This document shows positions 17,275-48,040 of a stretch of 64,000 nt of DNA, piece by piece. Under the pieces are notes generated by a model, which worked only from the letters and a program-made list of their open reading frames with translations, was not told where the DNA came from and ran no database searches. The DNA lies in the NCBI GenBank assembly GCA_043228905.1, contig JBHGNT010000010.1:2418001-2482000 (forward strand), read 5' to 3'. A program made the translations under genes and the position numbers. The stretch's first letter is position 1. Each line of letters opens with the position of its first letter. The DNA comes from Azolla caroliniana (Eukaryota; Plantae; Polypodiophyta).

Positions 17275-18753
17275 TCAAGGAGGGGTAGAGGAATCACTGA
17301 GGTTCTGTTTCTCAATCTGATGCAAAGATGAAGAAGATGACGAAGAGACTACACATGGAGAGACGGGATCATCATCCTCTGCATTATGATAGATGATATG
17401 GTATTGGTGACGATGAGGAGAGAGATTAGAAATGGCGGACGCAGAATCAGGGTTACAACACAGACCTTCGTTGCTTCCAACACGCAGTTTTCTTCCCAAG
17501 CGTATCATGAAAGCTGCAGAGAATGGGATCTCTCCAGCGAGTTTATTTGAACTCAAATCAATCTCATAGATATGCGGGATCTGGCTTAAAGCCATGGGAA
17601 CTCCTCCTTCAAGCTTATTGCCCCTCAAATCTAAAGACCTCAGTGTCTTTACCTTCCCAATCTCTGCAGGTATTCTTCCTGTTAATCCTGATTCCGCCAT
17701 AGCCAAGCTTACAAGCTTTTCCATTTTCTCCCACATAGCTCTTGGTATCTCTGAGTTGAGGTTGTTATGGCTTAACTGAATCACCCTGAGTTGACTCAGA
17801 TTCGCCATAGCTACGTCTGGAATCTCTCCCCATAGCTGATTGGACGAAAGATCAAGAAGCCTCAGCTCCTGAGCTAAGCCTATTGTTTCAGGAATCGTAC
17901 CGGTAATGAGGTTATGACTGAGATCAAGCTTGATTAAGCTAAGCATCTCTCGCAAAAGGGACCATGGAATGGTTCCACGGATCTGGTTCGAACTCAGATC
18001 AAGGACTTTGAGCCTCTTCAGTTGGCTCAAGCTTTCTGGAATTTCACCATCGAATCGGTTATGGCTAAGCACGAGCTGTTGCAGGGACCCTAACTCGCCG
18101 ACCTCGGGGGGTATTTCTCCACCCAAACCATTCCCTGTGAGGACCAATCTCTGCAGCTTTCGAAGCTCGGATACCTGGGCAGGGAGATTGCCGACGAGTT
18201 TAGGGTTTCGGAGGAAAACGAGCTCTTCGAGGGAAGCCGACAGAGACCAAAGCACAGGCGGGAGCTCCATGGCCATAGTTGTGAAGCAGTTGTAAAAGAA
18301 GAGCTTCCGGAGGAAGGGGAATTTCTGCAGGGAAGGGCTAATGAAAGCATTCTTGCCACAGACAGGATTGTTGTCTGCGTTCGAGACCCATCCGAGGTTT
18401 ATCTCTACGATGTGATAGACATTGCTATCGTCCGGGGCACATACGAATCCATGGGGACCTTCCACGCACAGATTCCCTGCATACAGAGATCTCCATGGAA
18501 CCTCGTTGTTAATCGCCTCCAACACTTCGTAGACTGCAGTCGTTTCTTCTTCAGATACCACCATTTCCTGATCCATGGAGTAATCAGACGATGGCAAAGC
18601 ATCCACTCCAAATGGATTCATGGAAAGGTGCGTTTCTCCCATCATCATCATCATCATCATCATCATCTGAAATGCCAACAGAAGAAAATATAGCAGATTC
18701 ATAGCCTTCGATTGTTTTCTCCGCGTTGTTCGAATCACTGATGGTATTTCCAT
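17275..18753 (-). CDS. Extracellular LRR protein, PII-2/At4g28560-like receptor-like protein
   Basis: 492-aa ORF with a hydrophobic signal, a Cys-containing N-cap (VPWRSLY...LC...HGFVC...NNPVC...LRKLFFYNCFT) and about 10 plant-type LxxLxLxxNxLxGxIP repeats. Confidence 0.9.
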   Translation of the reverse strand: MEIPSVIRTTRRKQSKAMNLLYFLLLAFQMMMMMMMMMGETHLSMNPFGVDALPSSDYSMDQEMVVSEEETTAVYEVLEAINNEVPWRSLYAGNLCVEGPHGFVCAPDDSNVYHIVEINLGWVSNADNNPVCGKNAFISPSLQKFPFLRKLFFYNCFTTMAMELPPVLWSLSASLEELVFLRNPKLVGNLPAQVSELRKLQRLVLTGNGLGGEIPPEVGELGSLQQLVLSHNRFDGEIPESLSQLKRLKVLDLSSNQIRGTIPWSLLREMLSLIKLDLSHNLITGTIPETIGLAQELRLLDLSSNQLWGEIPDVAMANLSQLRVIQLSHNNLNSEIPRAMWEKMEKLVSLAMAESGLTGRIPAEIGKVKTLRSLDLRGNKLEGGVPMALSQIPHIYEIDLSSNKLAGEIPFSAAFMIRLGRKLRVGSNEGLCCNPDSASAISNLSPHRHQYHIIYHNAEDDDPVSPCVVSSSSSSSLHQIEKQNLSDSSTPP

Positions 18754-19392
18754 TGCTCTCTTGCTGCGAGCTTTACTGCAGCTCGATTGATTAATGCTAA
18801 CGAAAAATGGCCGGAGGGATGATAGGGATAGAAGAAATCGATGATGATGGATTAGAGTCGATATTGAAGAGAATTTAGATTAGACTCGGTTTATGGAGAT
18901 GGTATTCTATATCCGCTGTGGATATTTTAATTCATCCTTTCTATTTGCTCTGCTAGATATGATTTATCTGTGCAGATTTACGCATAGAAAAGAAGATGCA
19001 GATCAAGAAAGTATGTATCTCTTCAGAAAACAGGTAATAAAAAACAGATTTGAGAAGAAGAAAAAAGAAAAGTTAACGTGAAAAATAAGGGAGGAATGTT
19101 CTAGTATTATTTATTAATTGAAGCTTTTCTACGCAGTCCTGAGGAGTTATGACTGCACGCAACGAAGAAAGATGGAAATCATGGAAGGTGATGGAGACGG
19201 AGATAGAGATGGACATTGGAGATGGTGATAATGAAGGCGATGATGATGAATCATGATGATAATTATAAGTATGTAATGAAAGGGAGGAAAGAAGCAGCGC
19301 GAATATTGCAGGTAAGCTAAGCTATACGATGTGCGCATGTAGAGGGGTGGGTTAACTGTGAAGGAGGAGAACTGAGCAGAAAACGAGGGGGA

Positions 19393-31800: not shown

Positions 31801-32907
31801 ATATCAATTCAAAGACACGGGAAAGATCTCGATTACTTTCAGATATACGCTTACACAAAGATAAAAAAGAGATGTATATCTAAATCTAGGTTTTCCAAAA
31901 CATGAATTTAATCTATCAGTACGAACCAACATGAAAAAGACCCATTGCTTTCATAAGTGTAGCTTCTCCAAAGAGCACAAAGAGAGGGAGGTTCAAAACA
32001 GGGTTTTTAAAACATGAATTTACACGTGACTTCTAGCAAACAGACATATCCATTAGCTACAGATATGCATGGCAATAAATGGCAAGGTGATGCTGCATTA
32101 ACCACTGTTTAGATAAAGCAGACATAGCCATTAGCGACAGATATGCATGATACAAGCACGATAGATGGATTTCAAAATCCCAAGAAAAGGATAAAAACAG
32201 GAACAAATGGCTAACATTGCTATCATCAATCAATAAACGGCAAGGTGAAGCTGCAGTAACCACTGCTTAGCTAAAACAGACGAAGAAAAAAGAAGAAGAA
32301 GAACGGAGGTCCAAAGCAACATTTGAAAACAGGAACCAAATGGCAACGTTACTAACGGCATCAAGCAGGGTAGGCGTCATTTAAACCACATCAGCCACTG
32401 TTTTAGATCATACGGAAGAAATGGAGATAGAATACTCAAAGCAAGGGTTTAAAAACGCGAGACGTTATAGGTCTACATCAGGCATTAAGCAGCACAGAGG
32501 AAATGCTAGGGCAGGTCGGACTCTCGTTAATGTGGCACCGAGGAGGAAGAAGAAGACGAGCTAGATCCATAGACGAGAAAGGGGTAGAGAGGTAGCGCAA
32601 ATTCAGATCAACAGCTATCAGAAGAGAATCAATCAAACAAAGCATAAACGAGGAAACGAGAGACACAGAGAGGGAGGGAGGAGGAAGAGGAAGAAGAAGA
32701 AATACCTGCTTGACCTGCAAATCGTTGTGCATAGCGGGTGGTACCGGCGGCGTCAGCGTGTCCAGGTATGTAGTTGGAAGAAGAAGACGGATATGTGGCG
32801 GCCACGGAGGAGAAGGAAGAAGGGAGGTGATGATACCTGGGAGAGGAAAGGGGGCGGCGACGCCATGGCTGGGCTCTGAGGAGCGCACGAGCGGCGGTGG
32901 TGGCCAT
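28884..32907 (-). CDS. Aldo/keto reductase-family protein of bacterial-type subfamily, probable organellar transit peptide; 6 exons
   Basis: Exons 32907-32706, 31776-31611, 31311-31059, 30514-30256, 29573-29410 and 29093-28884 join in frame at GT-AG sites. Motifs: VSSLGHGTYLG, GINFIDCASNF, VIVCSKAG, IDIYFVHNPE, GKISMYGVA, VVQLPYS, AQCALQFVR, VGMRSVMHVEEN. An in-frame upstream ATG at 33027 is an alternative start. Confidence 0.88.
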
Positions 32908-33070
32908 GGCTATGGCTATGGCTATGGATTCTCTGTACTGCGTTCTTCCCTTCTCTGTGTGTTTCCTGAGAAGAGCGAGAGAAGAAGAAGAAGAAGAAGA
33001 AGAAGAGGGTTTTGCTGCGATGGGCATGAAATGAGAAGAGTGGGGGGGGGTTTAAGGATTTGTCTTTGAC

Positions 33071-33199
33071 CCATACATACATACATACATACATACATAC
33101 ATACATACATTACATACATACATAGATAGGCGCACACATACATTACATACATACATACATAGGCGCACACATACATTACATAGATACATAGATAGGCAC
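33071..33199 (+). repeat. (CATA)n microsatellite grading into a ~33-bp minisatellite (left flank of MULE-1)
   Basis: About 9 CATA units, then units of ataggc(a/g)cacacatacattacatacatac. Confidence 0.9.
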
Positions 33200-33340
33200 G
33201 CTCGTTGCTATCCTGCACCAAATCATAAAGAGGGCTGGTGAGGGAATCGCGGCCACAGACGGTGCAGGTCGCCTAGAGGAAGGTGCGTGCGATCTGCACC
33301 GTCAGATTTCGATAAGGAAGAGCGCGCGGAAAAAAAAGTT

Positions 33341-33582
33341 GTCAGAGGTCGCCCAACTCTGAGTCGATGGTCACCCAACCCTGTCAGAGGTCACCCAACT
33401 CTGAGTCGATGGTCACCCAACCCTGTCAGAGGTCACCCAACTCTGAGTCGTTGGTCGCCCAACCGAAATTGGTCACCCAACTATGACTGTTGCAAGTTGC
33501 CCAACCGTTTTAGGTCACCCAACCCTGACAGTTACAGGTTGCCCAACCGATTGGTCTCCCAACCGTTGCAGGTCGCCCAACC
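33341..33582 (+). repeat. Left subterminal array of about 12 GGTC(A/G/T)CCCAAC motifs, including a 42-bp unit x3
   Basis: gtcagaggtc(a/g)cccaactctgagtcg at 33341, 33383 and 33425; further motif copies every ~18-24 bp. Confidence 0.88.
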
Positions 33583-33633
33583 AAATGTATCATTCCAACC
33601 AAAATCTTCAAATAAGCTTGTTAATTACCCTTA

Positions 33634-33906
33634 AAACTTACAATAACATATCAAATAGTCACAAAATTCAACCTTAAAATACTTAAAACCGACGATCTTT
33701 ACCATACTTATGTTAAAACAAATAATCATATTAAAACATAAAAGTTGAAAGTTAAAAAACATTTAAAACATAAAACGAAGAATGTAAACTTACAATAACA
33801 TATCAAATAGTCACAAAATTCAACCTTAAATTACTTAAAACCGACGATCTTTACCATACTTCTGTTAAAACAAATAATCCTGGCAAAACATAAAAGTTGA
33901 AAGTTA
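33634..33906. repeat. 152-bp period tandem duplication just 3' of the transposase stop
   Basis: aaacttacaataacatatcaaatagtcacaaaattcaaccttaaa occurs at 33634 and 33786. Confidence 0.85.
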
Positions 33907-33914
33907 CCAAACAT

Positions 33915-36839
33915 TTATGGCTCATCCGGAGATGATGGCAAGATGCGACCACAATTCTTGCAACAATCAACATTTGAGTCCCTTGATCTAAAGGTCAAGG
34001 CATCGCAATGCAAGCATCGCATTTTATCTGTCGCACATATTGGCAACCGCCTCCTAGCTCGACTTGCGCCTCTTTGCATTTTTCCTGTGTGTGCCTTGGA
34101 AGTGTTTGGGGAGCTGCCAATAAGATCTTGTGAAATGTTGATTGATGCTCCCCTTTTTGCACCAATTGCTTGCTTACGCCCTATGGATCCACGGTCTTCT
34201 TCGTTAGTTGGTTTCGGTGCACCTGTGTGATACACCAATGTCTCACTTGTTTCTTGAATGGACTCCATACATGCCAAAATTGTTGCACAGTCGAGGGATT
34301 GTAACCCTTGCTTAAAACATTGAATAGCCCCCTCAAGCGTTTGTAATTTCGACAAACATTCCTCCACTCGTGATGTTATAGGGTTTGTCTCCTCGACTGG
34401 TTCTACCTCTGTCTCCATTTCCGTCTCTGTGAAATGGTCATTGCGCATATAGGTTGCATGATCTATAAAAGGCAATGACCCACATAGATGTGGCATGTGC
34501 CTCTCAATAATCATCCTGATGCCAAGTATATGCTTACATTTACTCGCAGGGTCGTGGCAATCACAATATGAACATTGGAGCGATACATTATACCATACAT
34601 CCGGTTTTGTCAAGCTCAATATTTTAAACCAATATCGAGGCTCGTCCACAATATGCATTGTCGCATTATTAGTTTCATACCTCTCTAGTAGCCTTTCGGC
34701 CTCTTTAAGTCTAGTTGTTTGATCCCTACAATTTGCACGTGGTGCAAATCTACCACTCTCACATATTTCTTGTCGTTGCTTGTACCATTCAATAACAGTA
34801 CCCCCGATGCAAGTGCCAGTTTGACTGTCCCCGATTAAAACATGCACAAGATCGGTAATTGATCGGTTTATCCTCCCTCTTAAGGCAGTATATTTGATAA
34901 ACTGCCAATGTCTCTCCACAAGATTGGTAGTGTCAACATGTCCGTAGTTGAACATTCTACCAAATTTGGGCCACAGTTTCCTCCACACACATGTCAAGCC
35001 ACACCATCCTCCTTCTATATATTGCCAAACACCTGGCTTGTTTGCATATTCTACCTTTAAGTCCTCACATTGGGCATTGAATGTGGATTCCGTAATGCAT
35101 TGCATGAGTTGGCACATCCGATTATAAAGGTGGTTTCTCTCACTTGCACTTACCTTTGGCAACAAGTTGTCCAACCATGCTTTTTTTGCATGGAAGTGAC
35201 ACAACAAAAGTCGACAATGTGTTTGCGACCTTTGCCCATTTGTAACTATCCAAGATAATCGGTCTGTTGCAACCACATTACTTATGGCATTATACGATGT
35301 CCAACTTTTATCGATGACTATGGCATTTGGCCTCACATTGGGCATCCGTGCAAATATGACTCTCAAGCAAGTTTCTAAAGCTACTTGCTCATGGTTAGAC
35401 CCCTTATCAGAACTACATATCATGTACCATAATGGGATACCAACTCCCATGGCATTTGGAGCCACAGCTGCATATAATGGCAAGCCAAATTGGTTTGTTT
35501 TAAACGTGGAGTCGATTGCCCAAGAGTTGTTTATCGACAGTCGCTCACACATCTCTAACATCCATTCATCTTGGAGCACCAAGATGAACGGTTGCCTTGC
35601 GGGAGATCCATATTCACCAGGCAAGTAGGGTTGGACATGAGCCACCTTCCCAAGATCTCGGAGGGCATAGGCATCTTGCATCATCAAAGACCAATCAACC
35701 CCTGACATGGCACTCCCGATTTTTAACTTGTTGGCCATGTTATTGACCTCCTTTGGTATCATAAAGAACCTATAACTCACAAGGTCTAATGGACTAGCCT
35801 TGGACTTATGATATGCTTCCTTACGCATGCTCATCCGTGCCACGTGTCGTGCGCAACCAACATCAAAAAGGTCATCTCTACAACAACTTATAACATTTGG
35901 GGCCACTGGCAAATAGTATGCATCTGGTCTACTTCCCGGTACATGACCCGTATGAGGTCCATATATTGAAAGGGTCACTGTCCCATGGTCAACCCCGCCA
36001 TTCATTCGAGCGTTCACATGAAAAGTACACCCACATCGAGATGAATGCTTTCTACGTCGAGTGCATGGATATTGCTTGTTGGCCACACCGAATCGGTGAC
36101 AATTATACCTAGTCACATGTGCACCCCTTGTGACCCCTGTACGAAAGCGTGTGTGATACCTCAATTGAACATCTATCAACGTATCATCAACCCTATGTGC
36201 CTCTATCTTGATCACTTCTATGGGTCTAGACTTTTTATATTTCACGACACTTGTCCCCTCCATGTCAGATGGAGTTAACCTCGACACAACTTGACAACCG
36301 CATTGGTCAATCACTGCTTTCACATACGCACTAGGGATCCCATAGTCACGAAGGTCATTGGACCAATTTCTCTTTAATTCTGTCAGAGTACCTGTCAAAG
36401 AACGGTGCGATGCGCCACAATGTGACGCCAATACTATCTCCCTCCATTTCTCTACGTGCGTAATCTGAAGATGAGGCGATGCCTTAAGGTGTATTGCATT
36501 CTCACTCATAAGCGTGAGACGACTCTTCATGCGCCTCCATGCATGTAAATTAAGAGGTGCCCCCCTTGCGAGTGTGCTTAATATTTCAAATGTTACCTTA
36601 ACTTGACCTAATAAATCTTTAAGCATTAAATCGTACATACCTCTAGTGAACGCAATATACCTCGCCGAACAATACATGAAGGGATCAACCTCCTCCGCCT
36701 CTTCTTCGGATGAAGCCGACTCATAGTCTTCGGATGTAGACGAATCCAAGTCATCGTCGATGGTTGCGGAGTATGGTGATGCATAACCATCCTCAGAATC
36801 ATACAAGGACGTGATTAAATCTATTTCGTTGGGATTCAT
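33915..36839 (-). CDS. MULE/Mutator-family DDE transposase with SWIM zinc finger (974 aa)
   Basis: WAIDSTFKTN (first D), IVIDKS (second D), LLCHFH (CxxH), TTNLVERHW (E), SWIM-like CDCHDPASKCKH, FAR1/WRKY-GCM1-like YNCHR...RCGC...HTGH and C-terminal CLHC...CKNC. Uninterrupted ORF. Confidence 0.93.
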   Translation of the reverse strand: MNPNEIDLITSLYDSEDGYASPYSATIDDDLDSSTSEDYESASSEEEAEEVDPFMYCSARYIAFTRGMYDLMLKDLLGQVKVTFEILSTLARGAPLNLHAWRRMKSRLTLMSENAIHLKASPHLQITHVEKWREIVLASHCGASHRSLTGTLTELKRNWSNDLRDYGIPSAYVKAVIDQCGCQVVSRLTPSDMEGTSVVKYKKSRPIEVIKIEAHRVDDTLIDVQLRYHTRFRTGVTRGAHVTRYNCHRFGVANKQYPCTRRRKHSSRCGCTFHVNARMNGGVDHGTVTLSIYGPHTGHVPGSRPDAYYLPVAPNVISCCRDDLFDVGCARHVARMSMRKEAYHKSKASPLDLVSYRFFMIPKEVNNMANKLKIGSAMSGVDWSLMMQDAYALRDLGKVAHVQPYLPGEYGSPARQPFILVLQDEWMLEMCERLSINNSWAIDSTFKTNQFGLPLYAAVAPNAMGVGIPLWYMICSSDKGSNHEQVALETCLRVIFARMPNVRPNAIVIDKSWTSYNAISNVVATDRLSWIVTNGQRSQTHCRLLLCHFHAKKAWLDNLLPKVSASERNHLYNRMCQLMQCITESTFNAQCEDLKVEYANKPGVWQYIEGGWCGLTCVWRKLWPKFGRMFNYGHVDTTNLVERHWQFIKYTALRGRINRSITDLVHVLIGDSQTGTCIGGTVIEWYKQRQEICESGRFAPRANCRDQTTRLKEAERLLERYETNNATMHIVDEPRYWFKILSLTKPDVWYNVSLQCSYCDCHDPASKCKHILGIRMIIERHMPHLCGSLPFIDHATYMRNDHFTETEMETEVEPVEETNPITSRVEECLSKLQTLEGAIQCFKQGLQSLDCATILACMESIQETSETLVYHTGAPKPTNEEDRGSIGRKQAIGAKRGASINISQDLIGSSPNTSKAHTGKMQRGASRARRRLPICATDKMRCLHCDALTFRSRDSNVDCCKNCGRILPSSPDEP

Positions 36840-36845
36840 CTCGAA

Positions 36846-37310
36846 TGAATCTAACTAATCTGATTAAGAATCTAACTAATCTGGTTATAAGAATCTAACT
36901 AATCTGATTATACCTGATTAAGAATCCCCCTAATATGATTAAGACTCTAACTAATCTTATTAAGAATCTAACTAATGTGATTAAGAATCCCCCTAATCTG
37001 ATTAAGAATCTAACTAATCTTATTAAGAATCTACAAAATCTGATTATAATTGATTAAGAATCTAACTAAGATGATTAAGAATCTAACTAATCTGATTAAG
37101 AATCCCCCTAATCTGATTAAGAATCTAACTAATCTTATTAAGAATCTACAAAATCTGATTATAACTGATTAATAATCTAACTAAGATGATTAAGAATCTA
37201 ACTAATCTGATTAAGAATCCCCCTAATCTGATTAAGAATCTAACTAATCTTATTAAGAATCTAACTAATCTGATTATAACTGATTAAGAATATAACTAAT
37301 CCTGATTAGC
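36846..37310. repeat. AT-rich ~21-bp minisatellite immediately upstream of the transposase ATG
   Basis: About 20 units of aagaatctaactaatctgatt, with variants (aagaatccccctaatctgatt) in a higher-order pattern. Confidence 0.92.
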
Positions 37311-37541
37311 TTTTAGAGATTGTGCAAAATAAGAATGTGATTAAGACGCAGAATGTGATTATAAGACAGATATTGGAGATGCAATGAGCTATGATTAAAA
37401 TGACAGAGAATGGTTTAAAGTGACAGAGAATGTGATTAATTTACATGTTAAGATGACCGTTTTTCTGGCCGTTTACATAACAGGTTGGGCGACCTGGTTG
37501 GGTGACCAAAACAAAAGATAATTAATTTTAAAAGGTTTGGG

Positions 37542-37882
37542 CAATACCACAACTTGCGATTGGTTTAAAACCATACATTCAGAACATCCACAATAATTGT
37601 TGGGAACAACATTTCCATTAACAAGTAATCGCGTTTACAATACCACAACTTGCGATTGGTTTAAAACCATACATTCAGAACATCCACAATAATTGTTGGG
37701 AACAACATTTCCATTAACAAGTAATCGCGTTTACAATACCACAACTTGCGATTGGTTTAAAACCATACATTCAGAACATCCACAATAATTGTTGGGAACA
37801 ACATTTCCATTAACAAGTAATCGCGTTTACAATACCACAACTTCCGATTGGTTTAAAACCATACATTCAGATCATCCACAAT
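37542..37882. repeat. 96-bp tandem repeat, 3.5 near-identical copies, overlapping the stop codon of the accessory gene
   Basis: caataccacaactt(g/c)cgattggtttaaaaccatacattcaga starts at 37542, 37638, 37734 and 37830. Confidence 0.93.
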
Positions 37883-38509
37883 ATTCGGATATATTTTTGT
37901 CGATTTCTGTAGTACTTGATTTCCGGGTCCATGAATCTTTTGAGTGATCTTTGACGCTCATAACTGTTAAAGCATGCCCCCGGAATACCCTCCTCCTCCT
38001 CTATACGCATCCCTCGTGGTAGGACTACGTCTATTGCATGTTCTCTGCGTAAATGTGACTCCATGTCACTTTTTTTCCGATACCACCTTGGCGAGAGGCG
38101 GCAAAACTCAGTGTAGATACATGCACGAGCCTTGTTCCCATTTGCATCTCTTCCAACCTTATACAACAAGTCGGGACGAGGAGCAACTGTTCCTTCTGCA
38201 CATGTGTTACATATTTAAGATTGACATAAAGATTGGCATAAAGATTGAGATATTGCAACGACACCAAATCCACATACCATTTGGAGGAGCATCTTGGTCC
38301 ATTTTGTCCCCACTCGTACACATGTCGGCTCCTCGACTTCGCCAATGTCTTCTAACGAAGACCCTTTAACAAATCACGAGTCAACATACATGCATCAAAC
38401 CCTAAACCATTCTTGGGGGAGATTGGTTCGTGACATACCTCTCTTGAGTTGGATATATATCACTGTTATCGAAATCCCACCAATCTTTGTACTTGGAGTT
38501 GGAAGTCAT
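37867..38509 (-). CDS. Putative 3-exon transposon accessory gene, 161 aa, single C2H2-like zinc finger
   Basis: Exons 38509-38439, 38363-38278 and 38195-37867. Both introns (75 and 82 nt) begin GTATGT and end AG with compatible phases. Product: MTSNSKYKDWWDFDNSDIYPTQERVFVRRHWRSRGADMCTSGDKMDQDAPPNEGTVAPRPDLLYKVGRDANGNKARACIYTEFCRLSPRWYRKKSDMESHLRREH...ILWMI. Confidence 0.7.
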
Positions 38510-38816
38510 CTACCCCCATTCAAGTAATCAAACATTTTTTGATTTTAGTACTCAAACACACAAAATATCAAGTTTAAGCAAGCAAATCATTCAAAACCAA
38601 CAATCAAAATATAGATGATTAAATCAAGTTTAAGCAAGCAAATCTAGTGAACGCAAGATCATAATAAGTTTGATAGGCCTCACCTATAGTGTGGATAAGA
38701 GTGGTTACATCCTCTTCTAGATTATGCCTTCAAGATACTGGCTGGGATTAGAGTGGCTGGAAATCAACAAAGCCTTGCCTATTAGATCCTATTATACTTC
38801 ACTTATGGTTCGCTTA

Positions 38817-38958
38817 TCTTCTTGTCTATAGTGACTCTAAACCCTAAAGCTTAAACATGTCTATGCATCAATATGGTCCATACAATCTTCTTGTCTATAG
38901 TGACTCTAAACCCTAAAGCTTAAACATGTCTATGCATCAATATGGTCCATACAATCTT
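38817..38958. repeat. 69-bp tandem duplication containing a telo-box (aaaccctaa)
   Basis: cttgtctatagtgactctaaaccctaaagcttaaacatgtctatgcatcaatatggtccatacaatctt occurs at 38821 and 38890. Confidence 0.85.
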
Positions 38959-39181
38959 GCTTGTTTTCATTATTATTAAGAAGCGATGAATATAACATTG
39001 TGGAAGATATAATAACAAGGAGCATACCTGGGAATAGTGATGGAGGAGATCGATTTGTGATGGAGGAGATCGATTTGTGCAGCCACAGACGATTTGTGAT
39101 GGAGGAGCTCCCACCTCTTTCCCGGCAAACCCAACCTGTCAATCTCGTTTGAAAAAATGACAGATTATGACAGGTTTAGGG

Positions 39182-39189
39182 CTTTTATA
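39182..39189 (-). promoter_or_regulatory. Candidate TATA box for the accessory gene
   Basis: TATAAAAG on the minus strand, just inside the right subterminal array and pointing into the element. Confidence 0.4.
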
Positions 39190-39196
39190 GACATCC

Positions 39197-39580
39197 CTAA
39201 AGGAGTCTCCCAACCTGGATAAACAGGTCTCCCAACTGTTTTAAAAATCAACAGTTGGGTGACCTGCTTCTTTTATTGAGTTGGTTGGGTGACCAACTCA
39301 ATATAAACTCTAAAGGAGTCTCCCAACCTGGATAAACAGGTCGCCCAACTGTTTTAAAAATCAACAGTTGGGTGACCTGCTTCTTTTATTGAGTTGGTTG
39401 GGTGACCAACTCAATATAAACTCTAAAGGAGTCTCCCAACCTGGTTAAACAGGTCACCCAACCTAGTTAAAAATAAACAGTTGGGTGACCTGCTTTTTTT
39501 TTTGAGTTGGTTGGGTGACCAAATCAACCAAAAATTTAAAAAAAAAACGGTTGGGAGACCTCTGACAGGGTTGGGCGACC
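39197..39580. repeat. Right subterminal array: 113-bp unit x3 carrying GGTC(A/G/T)CCCAAC motifs in both orientations
   Basis: ctaaaggagtctcccaacctgg at 39197, 39310 and 39423. Each unit contains the inverted pair caggtcNcccaac...gttgggtgacctg. Confidence 0.88.
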
Positions 39581-39728
39581 GCCTGCGCAGCTTTTTTTTT
39601 GGCGCCTTCTTCCTCTTCCAAATCGGACGGTGCAGATCACACGCGCCTTCTCTGAGCGACCTGCACCGTCTGTGGCCGCGATTCCCTCACCAGGCCTCTT
39701 TATGATTTGTGTCATAATAGACACGTCG

Positions 39729-40075
39729 GATAGGCACACACATACATTACATACATACATAGATAGGCACACACATACATTACATACATACATAGATAGG
39801 CACACACATACATTACATACATACATAGATAGGCACACACATACATTACATACATACATAGATAGGCACACACATACATTACATACATACATACATAGGC
39901 ACACACATACATTACATACATACATACATAGGCACACACATACATTACATACATACATACATACATAGGCACACACATACATTACATACATACATACATA
40001 GGCACACACATACATTACATACATACATAGGCATAGGCACACACATACATTACATACATACCTAGGCACACACAT
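39729..40075 (+). repeat. 33-bp minisatellite (about 10 units) between MULE-1 and MULE-2
   Basis: Unit gataggcacacacatacattacatacatacata, with the same sequence and orientation as 33100-33199. Confidence 0.93.
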
Positions 40076-40579
40076 GCTCGTGACTTTAACAACTACCAAA
40101 AAAAATTTAAGAGGGCAAGTGAGGGAATCGCGAGTGCGGACGGTGCAGGTCGCACCGTTGATGGCGCGTGCGATCTCCACCGTCCAATGTGGATAAATAG
40201 CTGACAGTGACTATCACTAGGAGCCCCGACTTTGTCACAAGGAGGCTCTGCCACGAGGAGCCCGACCAACTTTGGGTAGGAGCCCGACTCTCAAAAAAAT
40301 AAAACTAATAAAGAATAAAACAATGATATATACAACAAAAGTGAATAGGGTCGTGGTTATAGTTTTGTCTAAGATATGTTAGGTCTATGGTTCAAATCCT
40401 TTCCTTCTTTGAATTCTTTCTTTTTGGTTTTCTTCTTCATTGATTTCTTTCTTTTTTAGGGTTTCGACATTTGGTTTAGGGTATGTAGTCACTTTACACT
40501 TCATTTACATTTAAGGGGTCGTAATAGTGGTATTGAATTCAACACCTTAATTACTAAATGTGTTCATGGTGCCATAATA

Positions 40580-41646
40580 CAGTAACCATTCGGTTATGTG
40601 CGCGCCCACTTAAGTGCACCATTCTATTAAGTGCGCTTTTTATAGAGGTTAAAATCCCGATCAAAAAAATTACATTGTTCATGATGAAACTACATCAAAC
40701 GAAATTAAAACTATGTTCCAAACATTCAAAAAACAATAAAAGAAAGGAGTTTCTAACAAAAATAATAATTTAAAGAATTTGTTACGTGATGGTGGGTGGG
40801 GTCTCCTGGAAATGCACAAAGAGAAATGCAAGGAAAAAGAGAACCAAATCTCAGAATTGGTCTCTCCCGTCGTAGCGTTTGTGTGCGTGTTATGTGTTGT
40901 ATGTGTGTGTGTGTAGAATTGTGAGTAGGTAATTTTGATTCTCGTTAAAGAAAATAAACTTTCCTACTTAACCCAATTATCCTTTTCCTTTTCCGTATTC
41001 ATTCAATCTTAATTATGTTTCTTTCTTTCTCTCCCTCCCTCACTTTCTTAATTTTGTTTCTTTCTCTCCATCTCTCCTCCTCCCGCCACCGCCGCCGCCA
41101 CCTCCTCCCGTCACCACCTTCGTTCATTCTTAATTTTCTCCTTCTTTCTTTCACTCCCTCACTCCCTCCTCCCTCTCTTTCTCTTTCTGTACATCTCGTT
41201 TATTTTCTTTCTGTTCCAACCTATGCTTTCTCAGTTGCTCCTCCTCTCTCTTTTTCGGTCTCCTCCATCTCCATCTCTACTACGATTCCTCAAACCTCCC
41301 ACCACTAGGAAGAGAATGCAAAGAAAAATCTAATCATATCCAAGGAAGTTCATTAGGTAGGCCTAGCAAAAAGGCAAAAACTCAAGGTAATATGGAATCG
41401 GGAAAAAGTGATATCCAACAAGAGTATGATGAAACCATAAACATTTCAGGTCAATTATATCACATTAATCGATCACTTTTCTAATGAAGAAATATATGAT
41501 ACAAACAGAGAAGGGGAAAATTTCAAGAAACTCTAAAATTTTTCAAAAAGGCCCAATTTTTTTTAGAAAACCCCTAAATGCGCAGCTCGGTTAAGTGCAC
41601 ACTTCACCCATGCGTTCAAAGTGCGAACTTAACCGAATGGTTACTG
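40580..41646. mobile_element. Tc1/mariner-type non-autonomous element nested in MULE-2
   Basis: Perfect 17-bp TIR cagtaaccattcggtta ... taaccgaatggttactg, flanked by TA on both sides (40578-79 and 41647-48). Confidence 0.88.
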
Positions 41647-44439
41647 TAGTCTAAAAGGTGTAAATTTGTCATCATCAAACACTTAACCATGTGTTGTTGA
41701 TCGTACCTTTGTGCCCAACTTTCAAGAGCTCATTTGCCAAATAAAAATAGAATGGCAAGCACCACTACTTCTCCCTAGATGGCCACTTAGCTTCCACAAT
41801 TATTATATGATAGTTTCGCATCAACAAGTTACAACATGATGAATTCTCATCTTTTGTAATTGTAAATCTTTTACCCTATGATCCTTCTAATCTGCATCGA
41901 GCCCTTAACACTTTTGTTCAAGTAAAGTTAGCTCGGCTATGTTTGATTGTCACTTTAATATGCAACTCACTCATGTTCCAAGTAAAGATAACTCTCATAA
42001 TTTGGGCTTTTTCTTTATTATTTGACTTTATACCATGGAATACTCTACCTATGGATCATGAGCCAACATAAGAAGATATGAGTCCACCAATAGTTGCTAA
42101 CACTATTACCACCACCATGTTAGAAGTGAACCTGAAAAGTTATATAGCTTTTAACTTCCAGCAAAAAGATAAACATGGATACAAAACCTTGAGACCTCCG
42201 ATACAAACGATGCATTGGACGACCATGATGTATCCTCCAATTCATCTTCCGACATGGCAAAGACACCATGATGCATTGTGCTCTCCATAGATGGTTGTGG
42301 TCTATTACTACGGTGATTGAAGTGAGTGAATACAATGTGATTGAGAATGCAGTGATTGAAGTGAATGTGAGCAATTATGCCAATGAATAAAGTGAATGAA
42401 TTCAAATGAATGCCAATGATTGAAGTTCGAATGAATTCCATGTGATTGATAATGCACATGAATGAAGTAGATGATTTCAGTTTCTTCAATGATCTAGTTC
42501 GAGAATAATTTCAACACTTCGAGAATGATTTCAACTCTTAGTGAATGATCGAGAATGCCAATTGTTCGTGAATGATTTATGTGGTTTGATTAATCACTAC
42601 GGTGAATGAAATCAGTGCGAGTGATTAATAGACAGTGAATGAAGTGAATGATTTCAGCTCTTAGTGAATGAGTTCACCTCTTAGTGCATGGTAGTGACTT
42701 TGGTGAATCAATTTAGTACGATTGTTAGTATGATCGTTGCAAGCCCATCATTTCACGTAGTTGGGAACCTGCCTATTAATGAGTAGGGCTCCTCATTAAT
42801 CAGTCGAGCTCCCTCTTTTGATATGAGCCGGGCTCCTCATTGGAAAAATTGGAATGTTGAAATCAATTAAGCTTCCACGTCATTCAATTAAGCTTCCTCA
42901 TGTTCGAGTCATTCATAGGCTTTTCAATAATGATGTTTTCACTATCCATATTATTGGATTTGGGGCACCTAGCACCCTTTCTTACAAAAACCCTAAACCA
43001 TCATTCAAGTTAGCACACAAACATCACTATTTATACACAATATATAGTTGAGAAATGATTCATGCCATATCTCCCTTCATAGGGTATTGTTTCACCCCAA
43101 TCCACATAAAAGTATGTGAAGGGCTTGGACCGACTAACCATCTGTACAAACCACATGCCATTTTCAATAACCACCAATATGTCAATTGCATTCAAGTTCA
43201 AATTTCACAATCCAAGCACACTAAGAAATCGTCAGATGCATGCAACAATTTTTATTGATATAGCTAAATAATTGGGTGGAAACAAGTCCATATATAATAA
43301 CATATGAAATATTCAATGGAGAAATGTGGAACATGCAGGTGTCTCCAATAGCATTTTGAATATGGCATACGAGAAGCAAGAAGAAAAAGGGATACAAAAG
43401 GAGCCCATGAAATCAGAGACACCACACAAACATGTTATTCATGGTGATTCAAATACATTGCATATTAAAATGTTTGAAATATATAAATTTTCAAATCCTA
43501 CTTTGATTACAAAGCCTATTGTATGTCTAGAACCATATTTGAGAACCTAGTCCTCTTAATAAGATACCGATGTAGAGTGGAAGACTTCAAACATTTAGAA
43601 TATGGCATATGAGAAACAAATGGTTCCATATTCAAACATGATTTCCATATTTCGAAGGATCACGTGGAAGAATTCAAACATTTAGAATATGCAGGCACAC
43701 ATACATACATGGTATTCATTGGCTATAATGACATGTCCTCATGGTGATTATATCTATGCTTACAATGCTTAACTAATCTCTGCTACATAATATTATCATT
43801 GTCGTCATCCAATAGGAAAATAACAAACCTATTATGTGTAACCACATCTGTGTGCTTGAAATAATTGCATTCCTACGTATGTAAACATGAATACATAAGT
43901 GCTCAAGATAATCGTACCTTGTGTTGTAACTAAGTACGTGAGATAATCAATGCTTGAACAAACATATTTTGTGTTTCTTTGAGCTTAGTTTCATTTGGTG
44001 GAAAACAATGAAAATGGGTTGAAAGAAAATACAAAAATGTTATTTCTAATTCAACATTTTTTCATATTGATGGTGAAATTATAACAATGCATTTATATGA
44101 TACATTTGAAAAATGAAACAACTAAGTCTCTCACCATGTTAGAATATGGAACCATGTGATCAAATGTAAATGAAAAGAAACCTTAAACGATGTAAAAAAT
44201 AAAAATAACCATGAAAATACATACCTGTTATTGCTTTCGTTTTGCGGATCGAATGTAGGTGGTTGGGAAGTGCTCGCTGGCGGAAAGTGGTGCTCCTCTC
44301 TGATTCTTCCCTCCAAATACCCTAAAACTCTCTTTTAAAAATAGATTCTAAATGAGCGATTCAGGGTTTTTATTTTTTATTTTTCCCCTAAAAAACTCCT
44401 TCCATTAGTTATAAAATTTTACAAATGAGACGATTATGT

Positions 44440-44900
44440 ACAAATCCCTGAAGGGCCACGATAGTTCCATCTTATGTGCATGCCCACTGACTCAAGAAAG
44501 GGAGAGGACGACCATTGTTGGATGAAGGCTATTCGTTGTCTTTCAACTCCCTTGGAGCCATCATTAAGGCCATCATATTGGCTCTTCAGAGTGGCTACAA
44601 TTTCACTCCATATCTCTAGCAGTAACCTTTGTTGGATGTGCGGTTTGGTTGGAGAAGACTTGCCTATATCGTTGTTTCCATAGAATCCAAAGAGTTATTG
44701 GGCTGACCAATTCCAACACCTCATGAGATTTGTCATTAAGAGGAGTGGAGTGGACATTGTCGCCGGAGGAGAAAAAGACCTCTTGTGCTTGTATCACCAA
44801 AGTCATCCCCTCCTCCCGATGCTCGTATTTGCCAATTGCGGCCTACCATGATAGCCAACATATATTTCCTCACTTGATTGAGCCTTGCACTTGACATAAT
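44440..44900 (-). mobile_element. L1-type LINE 3' fragment nested in MULE-2
   Basis: Minus-strand LVSPITLWILWKQRYRQVFS resembles the conserved W-x-I/L-W-K-x-R-N-x-x-V-F motif near the C-terminus of plant L1 ORF2. Confidence 0.55.
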
Positions 44901-45186
44901 TGCAACAAGCAGCCAACCTCATTAATAATGAGTGGGGCTCCTTTTGACAGAGTCGGGCTCCTATTGACAGAGGTTGTCAGACAGCGGGGCTCCTAGTCGG
45001 GTTCTTGTTTAGTAAGCGGGGCTCCTAGTCAGGCTCCCCAAGAAGTGACGATTTCTTCGCGCGTTTTTTTCCCCCCACATCGGACAGTGCAGGTCGCACA
45101 TGCCCTCGATTAAGCGACCTGCATCGTCCCTCTCCGCAATTCCCTCACGTGCCCTCTTCAATTTTTGGAGGTATTTAGACACGTCG

Positions 45187-45228: not shown

Positions 45229-46105
45229 GCATGCATGTTCATGCTTATTGCTATGAATGTAAATATGTATGTATCATGTATGTGTATGCAATATTGTATA
45301 TACATCATATAAGAAGTTTTGTTCATCCCTTGTTAGGGTTAGAGTTGAATTTAGGGTTTCCTTTCCATCTCAGAGCGAGCGGAGGTCCTCCATCGCAGAA
45401 CAAATCAAGCTCGTCAGCAAACAAGAAACCCTATTCTCCATCTCATCTGGTACCTCCATCCCCTTGTCTCTTTTGCTTCATTTGTTGTTCAATCCCTTGA
45501 CGAGAGAGCATGTTTCCACAACCGATATTCCTTACGATTTTCGGTTTGTTTTCTGTGCTTTCCAACGTCTTTGTCGGAGCTTTTTGTTTTTGAAGATGTT
45601 TCTTTCGATTTTCTGTTCATTTTCATTTTTGTTCTTCGCGTGGTTTGATCTCTTTACTGAAGACGGCTTTTTGGAGACCTTTTCCTTCAAATTTTCTACA
45701 TTTCCTTCAAATTCTGCGTGTTCTGCAATTCGGTATCTCCATTGGATTTATTTTTCACTGCAGAGATTCCTTCATTTTGTACATGCGTGGATTTTCTGAT
45801 AAAAATTCAGAGCTTTTGATGTCTGATAATCCGTCAGTATTACGTTTCCTGTTATAGCTCAGTCTCCTGACTCGATCTTTTTTTATAGGTCTTTTAGCAA
45901 ATTACAAATTCCTGTGGTCTCTGTGCTTCAAGCCCTTGCTTCGTTTTCTGCAGCAAGTTATTCAATCATTTGGTACGTTTTTAGAGTTTCTTATCAAAAT
46001 TCTGACTTCCCCATGACAGACAATGGTTCAGATTTCTTGAATCCATGTTGTTTTCACAGATTACAGTAAATTCCAGTGTTTTGTGACTTAAAATCTGTCA
46101 TTTTC

Positions 46106-48040
46106 ATGGCGGACAATGCTTCTCTTGATGACGAACTATTGGCAGCTGTTGGAAGAAGCAGTGGTGGAGGAGGAAGCAGAAAACCACCGTTTTCTCGTTC
46201 CTCTGTAAAACGAGGAAGAAGTGGAGAAAGCTCTGATGAAGATGATTATGAGGAAGGCCCTGGCGAGTTCAAAGCCGACACAGACGAGGAAGAAGAGGAG
46301 GAGGAGGAGGAAGAAGATTCAGAAACTGATAAACTGCAGGGAACTGGCAATAGAAAAGCTTCTGGATCTAAGATGCCTCTTAAAAAGAGAATAGATAAGG
46401 ATGAAGGATTGGATGATGGATATGCCTCTGATGATGCTCCTTCATATGGTAGTGATCTGTATAAAGATGAAGCAGACAAAGAAGAACTTGGTAAGATGAC
46501 AGAACTGGAAAGGGAGATGATCTTATTAGAGAGAGGAGAGAAGAGAGAAGATTACTTGGCTAGGAAGAAGGCTGGATCTCGACAACAGAAAGAGATTAGT
46601 ATTAATGGAGCCACTAGTAGGCAGAAAGACCTTCAAACTCCTCCTTCATCCTCTCGGATGAGATCATCGACCAGAGATTCTTCTCGGAGTGTTAACAAGA
46701 ATGCTCTCAATAAGCTTATCTCTGCAAGGCAACAGAAAGCACACGAGTCTGATCAGAGGAGGAATAGTTCAACTAGGAGGCCATCTCCCCCTAGCCACAG
46801 GAGGAGACCTGGTGGTGATGTTGAAGCTAGTGATGAATCACAAAATAGTGACGATGAGAGAGATCGAGACCATGACAGGCGAAGGTATTCTAGAAATACT
46901 AGTGTTAATGATGGTGGCCATAGTGACGATGATCAAGAGGATCATCATGCTGATATCACTCTAGAAGATGTGAATAGCATTACCATCAAAAGATCTAAGC
47001 TTGCAAAGTGGTTCCTTGAACCTTTCTTTGAAGAAATCATTGCTGGATGCTTTGTAAGGGTTGGTGTAGGGTCGAAAGATAATCATAATATGTATCGTCT
47101 ATGTCAAGTAAAGAATGTAGATGCAAGAGATCATGACAAACAATATAAATTTGAGAATAGGATGACTCATAAATGGCTGAATCTTGTATGGGGTGATTCC
47201 GAAGCAAGATGGCAAATGGCTCGGATTTCTGATCAAGCACCAACTGTAATAGAGTTTAATCAGTGGTGTAGAGAGGTTGAGAAATCACACTCTCGCAAGC
47301 CATCTTTGGTAGATATAACAGATAAAAAAGAAGCTATTGCCAAGCTAAATACTTTTGTTTATTCTGCCGATCTTGTTAAGAAAATGCTACACGAGAAGAA
47401 AATGTCTTTATCTAGGCCATCAAATGTGGCCGCGGAGAAGGACAGACTTCTAAAAGAGATGGCTATTGCTGAAAGTAAAAATGACCATGTTGATATTGAG
47501 AGAATCCAGGTGAGGCTGAAGGAGTTAGAAGCATATTCAATGCAGAATCAGAATAAGAATGCAAAGGCTATGGCATTAGCAGAGATGAACAAGCGGAACA
47601 GGTTTGAGAATTTCAAGAATGCTTCTGAATTGAAGCCAGCAAGCCATGCAAGGGCTGGTGAAGCAGGATATGATCCATTCTCTCGTAGATGGACACGTTC
47701 ACAGAACTATTATGATAAGACTTCTAATGGTGAGATTAATGAATCATTGAAAGAAGGTGAAGATGCCAGTGCCATTGCTGCTGATTCTGGCAAGCTTATA
47801 GATACGAAAGCTCCTTTCACTGAGGATAAAAAGCTATTTTCTCTACATGATTTCGATCTTCCAATAAGTTTAGCGGGAATACAGAAGTTTGGCGGTGCGC
47901 TTGGTGCTCATTTGGCCTTCATTGCGAGGAAGCAAAGAGTTGAAGCTACCTGTGGAGTTCCTGTTGAGAACAGCGATGGGAGAAGGCATATGCTTACGCT
48001 CACTGTTAATGACTACAAACGAAGAAGAGGTTTGCTGTGA
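46106..48040 (+). CDS. VIP5: RTF1 homolog / VERNALIZATION INDEPENDENCE 5 (Paf1 complex, Plus3 domain)
   Basis: Intronless CDS. GSDLYKDEADKEELGKMTELEREMIL, Plus3 (RSKLAKWFLEPFFEEIIAGCFVRVGVG...YRLCQV), GYDPFSRRWTRS and C-terminal LTLTVNDYKRRRGLL. Confidence 0.95.
   Translation: MADNASLDDELLAAVGRSSGGGGSRKPPFSRSSVKRGRSGESSDEDDYEEGPGEFKADTDEEEEEEEEEEDSETDKLQGTGNRKASGSKMPLKKRIDKDEGLDDGYASDDAPSYGSDLYKDEADKEELGKMTELEREMILLERGEKREDYLARKKAGSRQQKEISINGATSRQKDLQTPPSSSRMRSSTRDSSRSVNKNALNKLISARQQKAHESDQRRNSSTRRPSPPSHRRRPGGDVEASDESQNSDDERDRDHDRRRYSRNTSVNDGGHSDDDQEDHHADITLEDVNSITIKRSKLAKWFLEPFFEEIIAGCFVRVGVGSKDNHNMYRLCQVKNVDARDHDKQYKFENRMTHKWLNLVWGDSEARWQMARISDQAPTVIEFNQWCREVEKSHSRKPSLVDITDKKEAIAKLNTFVYSADLVKKMLHEKKMSLSRPSNVAAEKDRLLKEMAIAESKNDHVDIERIQVRLKELEAYSMQNQNKNAKAMALAEMNKRNRFENFKNASELKPASHARAGEAGYDPFSRRWTRSQNYYDKTSNGEINESLKEGEDASAIAADSGKLIDTKAPFTEDKKLFSLHDFDLPISLAGIQKFGGALGAHLAFIARKQRVEATCGVPVENSDGRRHMLTLTVNDYKRRRGLL

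What the first reader, a model, noticed from the sequence alone, without database searches (positions are those of the whole stretch)
37867..38509. Hidden 3-exon C2H2 zinc-finger accessory gene inside the transposon
Seen: the ORF track shows only a TTG-start fragment. Two short introns with identical GTATGT donors (38438-38364, phase 2; 38277-38196, phase 1) join an ATG at 38509 into an uninterrupted 161-aa protein. It contains C-x5-C-x15-H-x4-H (CIYTEFCRLSPRWYRKKSDMESHLRREH) and a basic C-terminal segment, and lies upstream of and co-oriented with the transposase. Established: MULEs can carry second genes (maize mudrB, Arabidopsis VANDAL VANC anti-silencing proteins, ULP1-like cargo); this protein resembles none that I recognise. 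Inference: a candidate new accessory factor for target selection (binding CATA repeats), autoregulation or anti-silencing.
Basis: partly seen in the sequence, partly recalled or inferred. Interest (0 to 1): 0.82.

Follow-up and report, generated by a model that had tools for sequence, protein, structure and literature searches.

The report
Truncated transposon zinc-finger Ulp1-protease gene
The small hidden gene is the cut-off front end of a longer, spliced gene that intact copies of this plant jumping element carry; the full gene encodes a predicted SUMO-type protease behind a likely zinc-binding domain of no known family, and likely helps the element escape silencing or move.

Summary
The three exons are real and give 161 aa. 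Both introns are spliced in RNA-type runs and not in the one DNA run laid; every read that can be assigned comes from a sister copy. The 161-aa protein is a stump. Sister elements 99% identical carry 1,560 more bases after window 37884. There the gene has six coding exons and 530-549 aa: a C-x5-C-x15-H-x4-H domain, a helical domain, a linker and an Ulp1/Peptidase C48 domain with His, Asp and Cys intact (PF02902, E 1.1e-7). The window's last residues and stop come from a tandem repeat beyond the break. Between two subfamilies dN/dS is 0.34. Ulp1-carrying Mutator elements are known (Kaonashi, melon, grape, rice), and this scan noted transposon-Ulp1 pairs in other genomes, not this family. New here: an N-terminal module with no Pfam or PDB match, in a TIR element with arrayed 11-bp motifs and CATA-rich flanks. 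A VANC-like anti-silencing role is plausible but untested. Verdict: new variant of a known kind; this copy is a deletion derivative.

The parts
33200..39728 (-). Whole Mutator-like element, 6,529 bp; an internal-deletion derivative of a full element (7,724 bp in L004)
   Evidence: Termini and 9-bp TSD; TIR arms; collinear with L001, L004, L008, L010
33191..33199 (+). 9-bp target-site duplication, left copy
   Evidence: Same 9 bases at 39729-39737; lies in a repeat array, so less diagnostic than usual
39729..39737 (+). 9-bp target-site duplication, right copy
33203..33341 (.). Terminal inverted repeat at the 3' (transposase-distal) end
   Evidence: 83-87% complementary to 39588-39725
39588..39725 (.). 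Terminal inverted repeat at the 5' end
33347..33581 (+). Subterminal array of the 11-mer GGTC[AG]CCCAAC (11 copies)
   Evidence: 24 copies inside the element, 0 elsewhere in the window
39226..39580 (.). Subterminal array of the same 11-mer (11 copies, both strands) around the promoter of the accessory gene
37484..37507 (-). Two copies of the 11-mer between accessory gene and transposase (3 in L004, 11 in L008, 13 in L010)
39028..39139 (-). Non-coding first exon (5' end not mapped; TATA-like box near 39190)
   Evidence: Joints to 39028/39031 in X16 and X17; TATA-like box read from sequence
38510..39027 (-). 5'-UTR intron, 518 nt, GT..AG, ending just before the ATG; contains an optional exon from 38756
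   Evidence: X17 skip of 518 (register inferred, 3 nt from the listed joint); X16 skip 38757-39027 with GT..AG
38439..38509 (-). Coding exon 1
   Evidence: ATG kept in 13 of 14 aligned loci
38364..38438 (-). Intron 1, 75 nt, phase 2
   Evidence: Spliced in X23, X15, X17
38278..38363 (-). Coding exon 2 (86 nt; 146 nt, in frame, in subfamily B)
38196..38277 (-). Intron 2, 82 nt, phase 1
   Evidence: Spliced in X17
37884..38195 (-). Kept part of coding exon 3 (312 of 488 nt): Cys/His domain and the start of the helical domain
   Evidence: 99% identical to L001-L004 up to 37884
38038..38121 (-). C-x5-C-x15-H-x4-H motif (C78, C84, H100, H105), likely zinc-binding
   Evidence: Kept in 21/28, 26/30, 35/41 and 36/43 homologues that have a residue there, of 46 aligned
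37883..37884 (.). Deletion junction: 1,560 bp missing (L004 2842-4401), holding the rest of exon 3, exons 4-6 with the Ulp1 domain, and the true stop
   Evidence: short microhomology at the two breakpoints; junction in 0 of 18 loci
37867..37883 (-). Fortuitous last codons and stop of the 161-aa product, read from the 3' repeat region
37542..37883 (.). 96-bp tandem repeat, 3.6 copies (marker seen 4 times here, 2 times in L001 and L004)
36847..37299 (.). 21/115-bp tandem array directly upstream of the transposase
33915..36839 (-). Intact single-exon MULE transposase, 974 aa
   Evidence: PF10551 E 1.6e-8; 4 nt differences from L004; dN/dS 0.26-0.27 between subfamilies
33072..33197 (+). CATA-type repeat array outside the left end
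39729..40065 (+). 33-bp CATA-type array outside the right end

Best explanation
The window gene is the deletion-truncated 5' part of a six-coding-exon accessory gene of a Mutator-like transposon, whose intact form encodes a likely zinc-binding domain, a helical domain and an Ulp1-family protease domain predicted to remove SUMO or a related tag. Shown: the gene structure in sister copies, splicing of the first introns, purifying selection, the protease domain with its catalytic residues, and the 1,560-bp deletion here. Inferred (about 0.4): the N-terminal module would bring the protease to the element's own chromatin or transposase, possibly through the arrayed 11-bp motif, where removing the tag would relieve silencing or aid transposition. 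The window copy keeps an intact transposase, has lost the protease and most of the helical domain, and likely gets the accessory function in trans from intact copies; its 161-aa product is likely a non-functional stump.
For: L001-L004 are 99-100% identical to the window up to 37884 and then continue in frame; window junction in 0 of 18 loci. RNA-type contigs X18 record 9 (114 nt, 0 differences) and X17 record 3, and DNA contigs of X4, also run on at 37884-37889 into the conserved sequence. A six-exon model with five GT..AG introns gives one open frame of 530 aa in L001 and L004 and 549 aa in L007 and L010, with only in-frame length changes at about 88% DNA identity. Exon 5 hits PF02902 at 32.4 bits, cut-off 20.7, and yeast Ulp1 1euv at E 0.0045 with His, Asp, Gln and Cys aligned. 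These residues are kept in 26/28, 25/31, 23/26 and 22/25 homologues that have a residue there, of 33. Protease-region hits in 13 of 18 loci; the other 5 contigs end before it. All 4 loci that reach the transposase have the same order and orientation. dN/dS L010 vs L004: 0.34 overall (bootstrap 0.24-0.45), 0.20 Cys/His region, 0.21 helical, 0.37 protease, 0.27 transposase. Ulp1-bearing MULEs are in print.
Against: No read or contig that I could inspect shows introns 3-5 spliced or a single transcript from ATG to protease stop; exons 4-6 rest on ORF and splice-site conservation. The Trp-Leu-Asn-Asp stretch of yeast Ulp1 is not kept, so the substrate may not be SUMO. Zinc and DNA binding are untested: Pfam gives only weak zinc-finger leads (best E 0.0033) and the motif region folds at pLDDT 51-79. 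Exons 1-2 show no clear constraint (dN/dS 0.77, interval 0.25-2.51). The loci are metagenome contigs that may be collapsed copies: L001-L004 are 99.9% alike, L007/L009/L010 99.8-99.9%, and L004 has no TSD, so dN/dS rests on one subfamily pair. The 11-mer arrays could be transposase sites only.
Confidence: 0.82

Rival explanations
1. The 161-aa product is a functional, protease-less regulator in its own right (a DNA-binding competitor or dominant negative).
For: Promoter, ATG, both introns and the whole Cys/His domain are intact. VANC genes occur with and without an Ulp1 domain (PMC13317346 passages).
Against: Junction in 0 of 18 loci. No listed read or contig crosses it. The window differs from L001-L003 at 1 of 626 positions, too young for selection to be seen. 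Other copies carry different, unrelated deletions (L008, L012, X17 record 4), as expected for decay.
Confidence: 0.07
2. The main job of the Cys/His domain in the intact protein is target-site selection: it would bind (CATA)n and tether the transpososome there.
For: 6 of 11 distinct element ends have 5 or more CATA/TATG words in the 60 flanking bases, against 5 of 947 background windows. A related element at 40075-45186 is also CATA-flanked at both ends.
Against: 5 of 11 ends lack the repeat, and two of the six belong to one insertion. A single atypical finger would read few bases (recalled). The putative autonomous MuTAnT, which targets TA repeats, is described in its abstract with a mudrA-like ORF only, so the transposase may suffice. 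No binding test exists.
Confidence: 0.12
3. The gene is passively carried host cargo (Pack-MULE-like capture of a host ULP gene) with no role for the element.
For: Five introns and a C48 domain point to a host origin at some time; many copies are broken.
Against: dN/dS 0.34, close to that of the transposase. Subfamilies only 29-50% identical to L004/L010 keep the motif, and the conceptual translations show the same exon-3 and exon-5 donor positions. No named host protein with this N-terminus was found in three searches, though annotated proteins of this host may be absent from those libraries.
Confidence: 0.05
4. The 1,560-bp gap is a mis-assembly of this window and the insertion is really intact. 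The gene would still be the Ulp1 gene.
For: The junction sits at the edge of a tandem repeat and was not seen elsewhere.
Against: Only a 7-base imperfect microhomology joins the ends, which fits abortive gap repair (recalled) better than repeat collapse; other internal deletions occur in sister copies.
Confidence: 0.1

Closest known systems
Kaonashi (KIU) / Ulp1-carrying VANC genes of Arabidopsis VANDAL MULEs
   Same: Separate MULE gene with an N-terminal module and an Ulp1 domain of unknown role (PMC13317346, PMC6117582 passages). Short motifs arrayed in non-coding regions of the element, as VANC target motifs are (PMC5735166 passages).
   Different: KI-MULEs are non-TIR with the ULP gene in reverse orientation (PMC2528002 section 10); this element has about 140-bp TIRs and a co-oriented, upstream gene. 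No DUF1985, DUF287 or PMD hit in any N-terminal homologue. VANC is described as dicot-specific and MAIN-derived (PMC13547354 passages).
ULP1-containing TIR-MULEs and Jittery-like MULEs of melon, rice and grapevine
   Same: TIR element, ULP gene in either orientation, thought to be captured several times (PMC2528002 section 10). Peptidase_C48 is a recurrent non-transposase domain of active plant TIR elements (PMC12973397 passage).
   Different: In grapevine the ULP sequence lies downstream of the transposase; here upstream. The passages read describe no Cys/His plus helical N-terminus. This transposase shows only PF10551 and a weak PF21056 hit, no other MuDR- or FAR1-type Pfam domain at E up to 10; Atlas look-alikes are all under 0.9, leads only.
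Yeast Ulp1 / Peptidase C48 (PF02902, PDB 1euv)
   Same: His-Trp, Asp, Gln-x-Asn-x-x-Asp-Cys-Gly aligned.
   Different: The Trp-Leu-Asn-Asp stretch is replaced; substrate unknown.
Maize mudrB
   Same: Spliced second gene of a TIR MULE; MURB binds the MURA N-terminus (PMC12973397 passages).
   Different: No protease domain is described for MURB in the passages read; no sequence comparison was made here.
MuTAnT (Medicago MULE that targets TA microsatellites)
   Same: Ends enriched next to a microsatellite (abstract).
   Different: CATA-type rather than TA repeats; the preference here is partial (6 of 11 ends).

Membership tests
Mutator-like elements (MULE) | MULE DDE transposase domain | tested here: met
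   PF10551 35.4 bits, cut-off 27.6
Mutator-like elements (MULE) | 8-11-bp target-site duplication (PMC6446971 passage) | tested here: met
   9 bp at 33191-33199 and 39729-39737; inside a repeat array
Mutator-like elements (MULE) | Long terminal inverted repeats | tested here: met
   About 140 bp, 83-87% complementary
Ulp1 / Peptidase C48 | PF02902 above the gathering score (intact sister copies; absent from the window copy) | tested here: met
   L004 exon 5: 32.4 bits vs 20.7; P0080 41.2 and P0078 43.0 bits; no protease remnant in the window
Ulp1 / Peptidase C48 | His-Asp-Cys triad and oxyanion Gln | tested here: met
   H397, D419, Q463, C469 of the 530-aa model, aligned to 1euv; kept in most of 33 homologues
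SUMO-specific ULPs | Trp-Leu-Asn-Asp substrate-contact stretch as in yeast Ulp1 (its role is recalled) | tested here: not met
   Aligned to E-M-A-S in L004; the Trp is not seen at that place in the homologue alignment; weak local alignment
SUMO-specific ULPs | Cleaves SUMO precursors or conjugates | not testable with these tools
   Needs an enzyme assay; also not studied for KIU as of PMC6117582
Kaonashi / VANC (VANDAL) | Non-TIR element, ULP gene reverse to the transposase | tested here: not met
   TIRs present; gene co-oriented in 4 of 4 loci that reach the transposase
Kaonashi / VANC (VANDAL) | DUF1985 / DUF287 or PMD (MAIN-like) domain by sequence | tested here: not met
   No such Pfam hit for 32 homologues at E up to 1, L004 exons 3-5, P0064 or P0019
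Kaonashi / VANC (VANDAL) | VANC21-like fold | tested here: inconclusive
   Fold searches gave only generic helical matches; models pTM 0.54
Kaonashi / VANC (VANDAL) | Short motif arrayed in terminal and intergenic non-coding regions | tested here: met
   11-mer in three non-coding clusters, 24 copies inside and 0 outside the element; may equally be transposase sites
Kaonashi / VANC (VANDAL) | Sequence-specific binding and demethylation of cognate copies | not testable with these tools
   Needs ChIP/EMSA and methylomes
Classical C2H2 zinc finger | C-x2-4-C spacing and C-x12-H (recalled consensus) | tested here: not met
   C-x5-C-x15-H here; C-x7-C in P0071
Classical C2H2 zinc finger | Aromatic-x5-hydrophobic-x2-H-x3-5-H helix (recalled consensus) | tested here: met
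   Y-x5-M-x2-H-x4-H; helix predicted over both His positions
Classical C2H2 zinc finger | Pfam zinc-finger hit or beta-beta-alpha fold | tested here: inconclusive
   Only sub-threshold hits (Rua1_C E 0.0033 in 3 of 32; two C2H2 models E 0.034 and 0.047 in 1 of 32 each); second Cys predicted in a helix at pLDDT 51-79
Pack-MULE | Non-autonomous, lacks transposase, carries host fragments | tested here: not met
   Intact 974-aa transposase ORF; cargo under purifying selection

The most novel reading that the evidence does not exclude
Intact copies of this family encode an independently evolved counterpart of the VANC/Kaonashi system: an undescribed zinc-and-helix DNA-binding module fused to an Ulp1 protease, which recognises the element's own arrayed 11-bp motif and strips SUMO from local chromatin to lift silencing, in a TIR-MULE lineage and host group outside the eudicot VANDALs. 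A neighbouring related element with the same termini but a different arrayed motif would mark the same protein-motif co-evolution.
Probability: 0.22. Interest if true: 0.78.

Novelty: new variant of a known kind. Interest (0 to 1): 0.42.

Why it matters
Plant transposons have picked up Ulp1 domains many times, and the reviews read here say their function is unknown and their activity untested (PMC13317346, PMC6117582). This family gives a spliced, selected, near-identical multi-copy example with a different N-terminal module, candidate binding motifs and natural protease-less deletion copies, so the question can be tested directly. If the module binds the element's own motifs, sequence-specific anti-silencing with a SUMO-type protease arose more than once. 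For the window itself the lesson is plainer: the 161-aa protein should be annotated as a truncated copy, not as a new small zinc-finger factor.

Full report
Observation. The gene lies on the minus strand upstream of a 974-aa MULE transposase (PF10551, E 1.6e-8), inside an element at 33200-39728 with about 140-bp TIRs and a 9-bp TSD. The host is a plant by its PPR and Plus-3 neighbours and run labels; its lineage was not established.

Splicing. Seven of 24 listed runs guessed or recorded as RNA, and one DNA run, were laid. Intron 1 is skipped with GT..AG ends in 2 raw poly(A) reads of X23 (one start, sense), one contig of X15 and two of X17. Intron 2 is skipped in X17 record 3; X17 record 4 joins exon 2 to the first 13 bases of exon 3; X15 skips 76 nt, which fits an acceptor 6 nt upstream that L001-L005 have and the window lacks. 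Two 5'-UTR introns appear as well (518 nt in X17, 271 nt in X16). None of these joints is listed for DNA run X4. X21 and X22 gave no listed joint, X18 gave no intron joint, and X16 holds an unspliced intron-2 piece. Depth is very low. Some X21 and X23 reads are unspliced and antisense, from a copy with a changed donor. Every read that can be assigned belongs to a sister copy; none was seen crossing the window's own 3' junction.

What it is. The first homologues already ran about 60 residues past the window's stop. A metagenome scan gave 18 loci. L001-L004 match the window at 99-100% up to 37884 and then hold 1,560 more bases. The window joins the two ends over a 7-base imperfect microhomology, and that junction is in 0 of 18 loci. 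X18 record 9 matches 37884-37997 without a difference and runs on into the missing sequence, as do X17 record 3 and X4 contigs. In L004 the full gene has six coding exons, five GT..AG introns and 530 codons. The same model is open in L001 (530 aa) and in L007 and L010 (549 aa, about 88% DNA identity, in-frame length changes only); L005 has one late stop, L008 has lost exon 1, and L006 and L011-L014 are broken. Exon 5 is an Ulp1/Peptidase C48 domain: PF02902 at 32.4 bits against a cut-off of 20.7, and yeast Ulp1 (1euv) at E 0.0045 with His397, Asp419, Gln463 and Cys469 aligned. The Trp-Leu-Asn-Asp stretch of yeast Ulp1 is not kept. Of 18 loci, 13 show the protease region and the other 5 end before it; all 4 that reach the transposase have TIR or subterminal sequence, gene and transposase in the window's order. 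L005, L011 and L013-L018 show neither TIR nor transposase, so their context is unknown.

Selection and spread. Between L004 and L010, dN/dS (Nei-Gojobori, 500 bootstraps) is 0.34 (0.24-0.45) for the gene, 0.20 for the Cys/His region, 0.21 for the helical part, 0.37 for linker and protease, 0.77 (0.25-2.51) for exons 1-2 and 0.27 for the transposase. This is one subfamily pair of possibly collapsed contigs. The N-terminal domain has 41 cluster representatives at E up to 0.001. The four ligands are kept in 21/28, 26/30, 35/41 and 36/43 homologues with a residue there; three rank 10th, 15th and 21st of 104 columns and the first Cys is outside the top 25, so they are well but not uniquely conserved. 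The protease has 33 homologues down to 39% identity, several in clusters of 13-21 members, with the catalytic residues mostly kept. In a subfamily about 50% identical, N-terminal and protease clusters list the same longest-contig lengths (6,490, 9,382, 2,174), indirect evidence that they are linked there too. Every source shown was a metagenome collection (ENA, MGnify, once JGI/IMG); no named host gene appeared.

The N-terminal module. It has no Pfam family above threshold; the best leads are Rua1_C (E 0.0033, 3 of 32) and two C2H2 models (E 0.034, 0.047). AlphaFold gives a low-confidence hairpin and two short helices over the motif (pLDDT 51-79) and three long helices at pLDDT 93-98. The window copy ends inside the first long helix. 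Fold searches found nothing specific. The His half fits the C2H2 pattern, the Cys spacing does not; 'likely zinc-binding, atypical' is as far as the evidence goes.

Non-coding features. An 11-mer occurs 24 times inside the element and never elsewhere in the window, in three clusters: both subtermini and just upstream of the transposase, where L004 has 3 copies, L008 11 and L010 13. A second element at about 40075-45186 has related TIRs, a different arrayed motif and no detectable coding remnant. Of 11 distinct element ends (one duplicate flank and two rows that are not ends of this family dropped), 6 have five or more CATA/TATG words in 60 flanking bases, against 5 of 947 background windows; two of the six are one insertion.

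How it likely works. Shown: a selected, spliced accessory gene with an intact-looking C48 domain travels with the transposase; this copy has lost two thirds of it. Inferred: the N-terminal module targets the protease to the element's chromatin or transposase, and removal of SUMO or a related tag relieves silencing or aids transposition (about 0.4). CATA targeting by the same module (0.12), a functional 161-aa regulator (0.07), neutral cargo (0.05) and mis-assembly of the gap (0.10) are the rivals.

Known systems. MULEs with Ulp1 genes are described in Arabidopsis (Kaonashi, which a review equates with Ulp1-carrying VANC genes), melon, rice and grape, with and without TIRs and in both orientations; the domain's function is stated as unknown (PMC13317346, passages; PMC2528002, passages and section 10; PMC6117582, passages; PMC12973397, passages). 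VANC binds short motifs arrayed in non-coding regions (PMC5735166, passages) and is described as MAIN-derived and dicot-specific (PMC13547354, passages). PMC6446971 (passages) gave TSD length and second-ORF background; PMC4486113 (abstract and outline) gave the microsatellite-targeting precedent; of PMC10398659 I saw the search listing and one reference line. This gene works like, at most, a KIU; it fails KIU membership on TIRs, orientation and N-terminal domains. Six searches listed no description of this family, within the limits of that library.

Verdict. Observation confirmed; interpretation partly supported. The feature is a deletion stump of a MULE Ulp1-type accessory gene, a known kind, with an undescribed N-terminal module. 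Interest 0.42; the boldest reading left open, an independent VANC/KIU-like anti-silencing system, has probability about 0.22 and interest 0.78.

Noticed in passing
window 40075-45186: A second, apparently non-autonomous element with related TIRs (arms 40091-40192 and 45075-45176, 75% complementary), the same terminal bases at 45186, a different arrayed subterminal motif (GGAGCCCGACT-like) and CATA-type arrays outside both ends; no tblastn remnant of the accessory gene or transposase.
   Followed up: partly
window 33072-33197, 39729-40065; L004, L007, L008, L009 flanks: Element ends are enriched next to CATA/TATG repeats: 6 of 11 distinct ends against 5 of 947 background windows. Possible microsatellite targeting, as for MuTAnT but with a tetranucleotide.
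   Followed up: partly
window 32690-33070: The element's 3' end sits about 290 bp upstream of a likely host start codon near 32908 on the minus strand, with the CATA array and a (TCT)n tract between; transposase read-through could reach this gene.
   Followed up: no
run X17 record 4; L004 2542 joined to 3653: A spliced contig identical to exons 1-2 jumps from 13 bases into exon 3 to the middle of the protease exon, out of frame: another transcribed internal-deletion derivative.
   Followed up: partly
window 38202; L004 2522-2523: Intact subfamily-A copies have a second, in-frame acceptor 6 nt upstream in intron 2, apparently used in X15; the window's one difference from L001-L003 removes it.
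   Followed up: yes
L004 3018-3107: Predicted intron 3 (90 nt, phase 0) has no stop in subfamily A, so retention would add 30 residues in frame; it has stops in subfamily B.
   Followed up: no
L010 1-107: A TIR-like end related to window 40074-40185 abuts the 5' end of the L010 element, suggesting nesting or clustering of related elements.
   Followed up: no
window 36847-37299: A 21/115-bp tandem array fills the region just upstream of the transposase ATG; the L008 and L010 alignments break over it.
   Followed up: no
window 5583-7376, 8939-14305, 17275-18879, 46070-48040: Host genes near the element: a PPR protein and a Plus-3 (RTF1-like) protein by Pfam; an LRR protein and a proline-rich, SWAP/CID-like protein named from the translation by recall only.
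   Followed up: no
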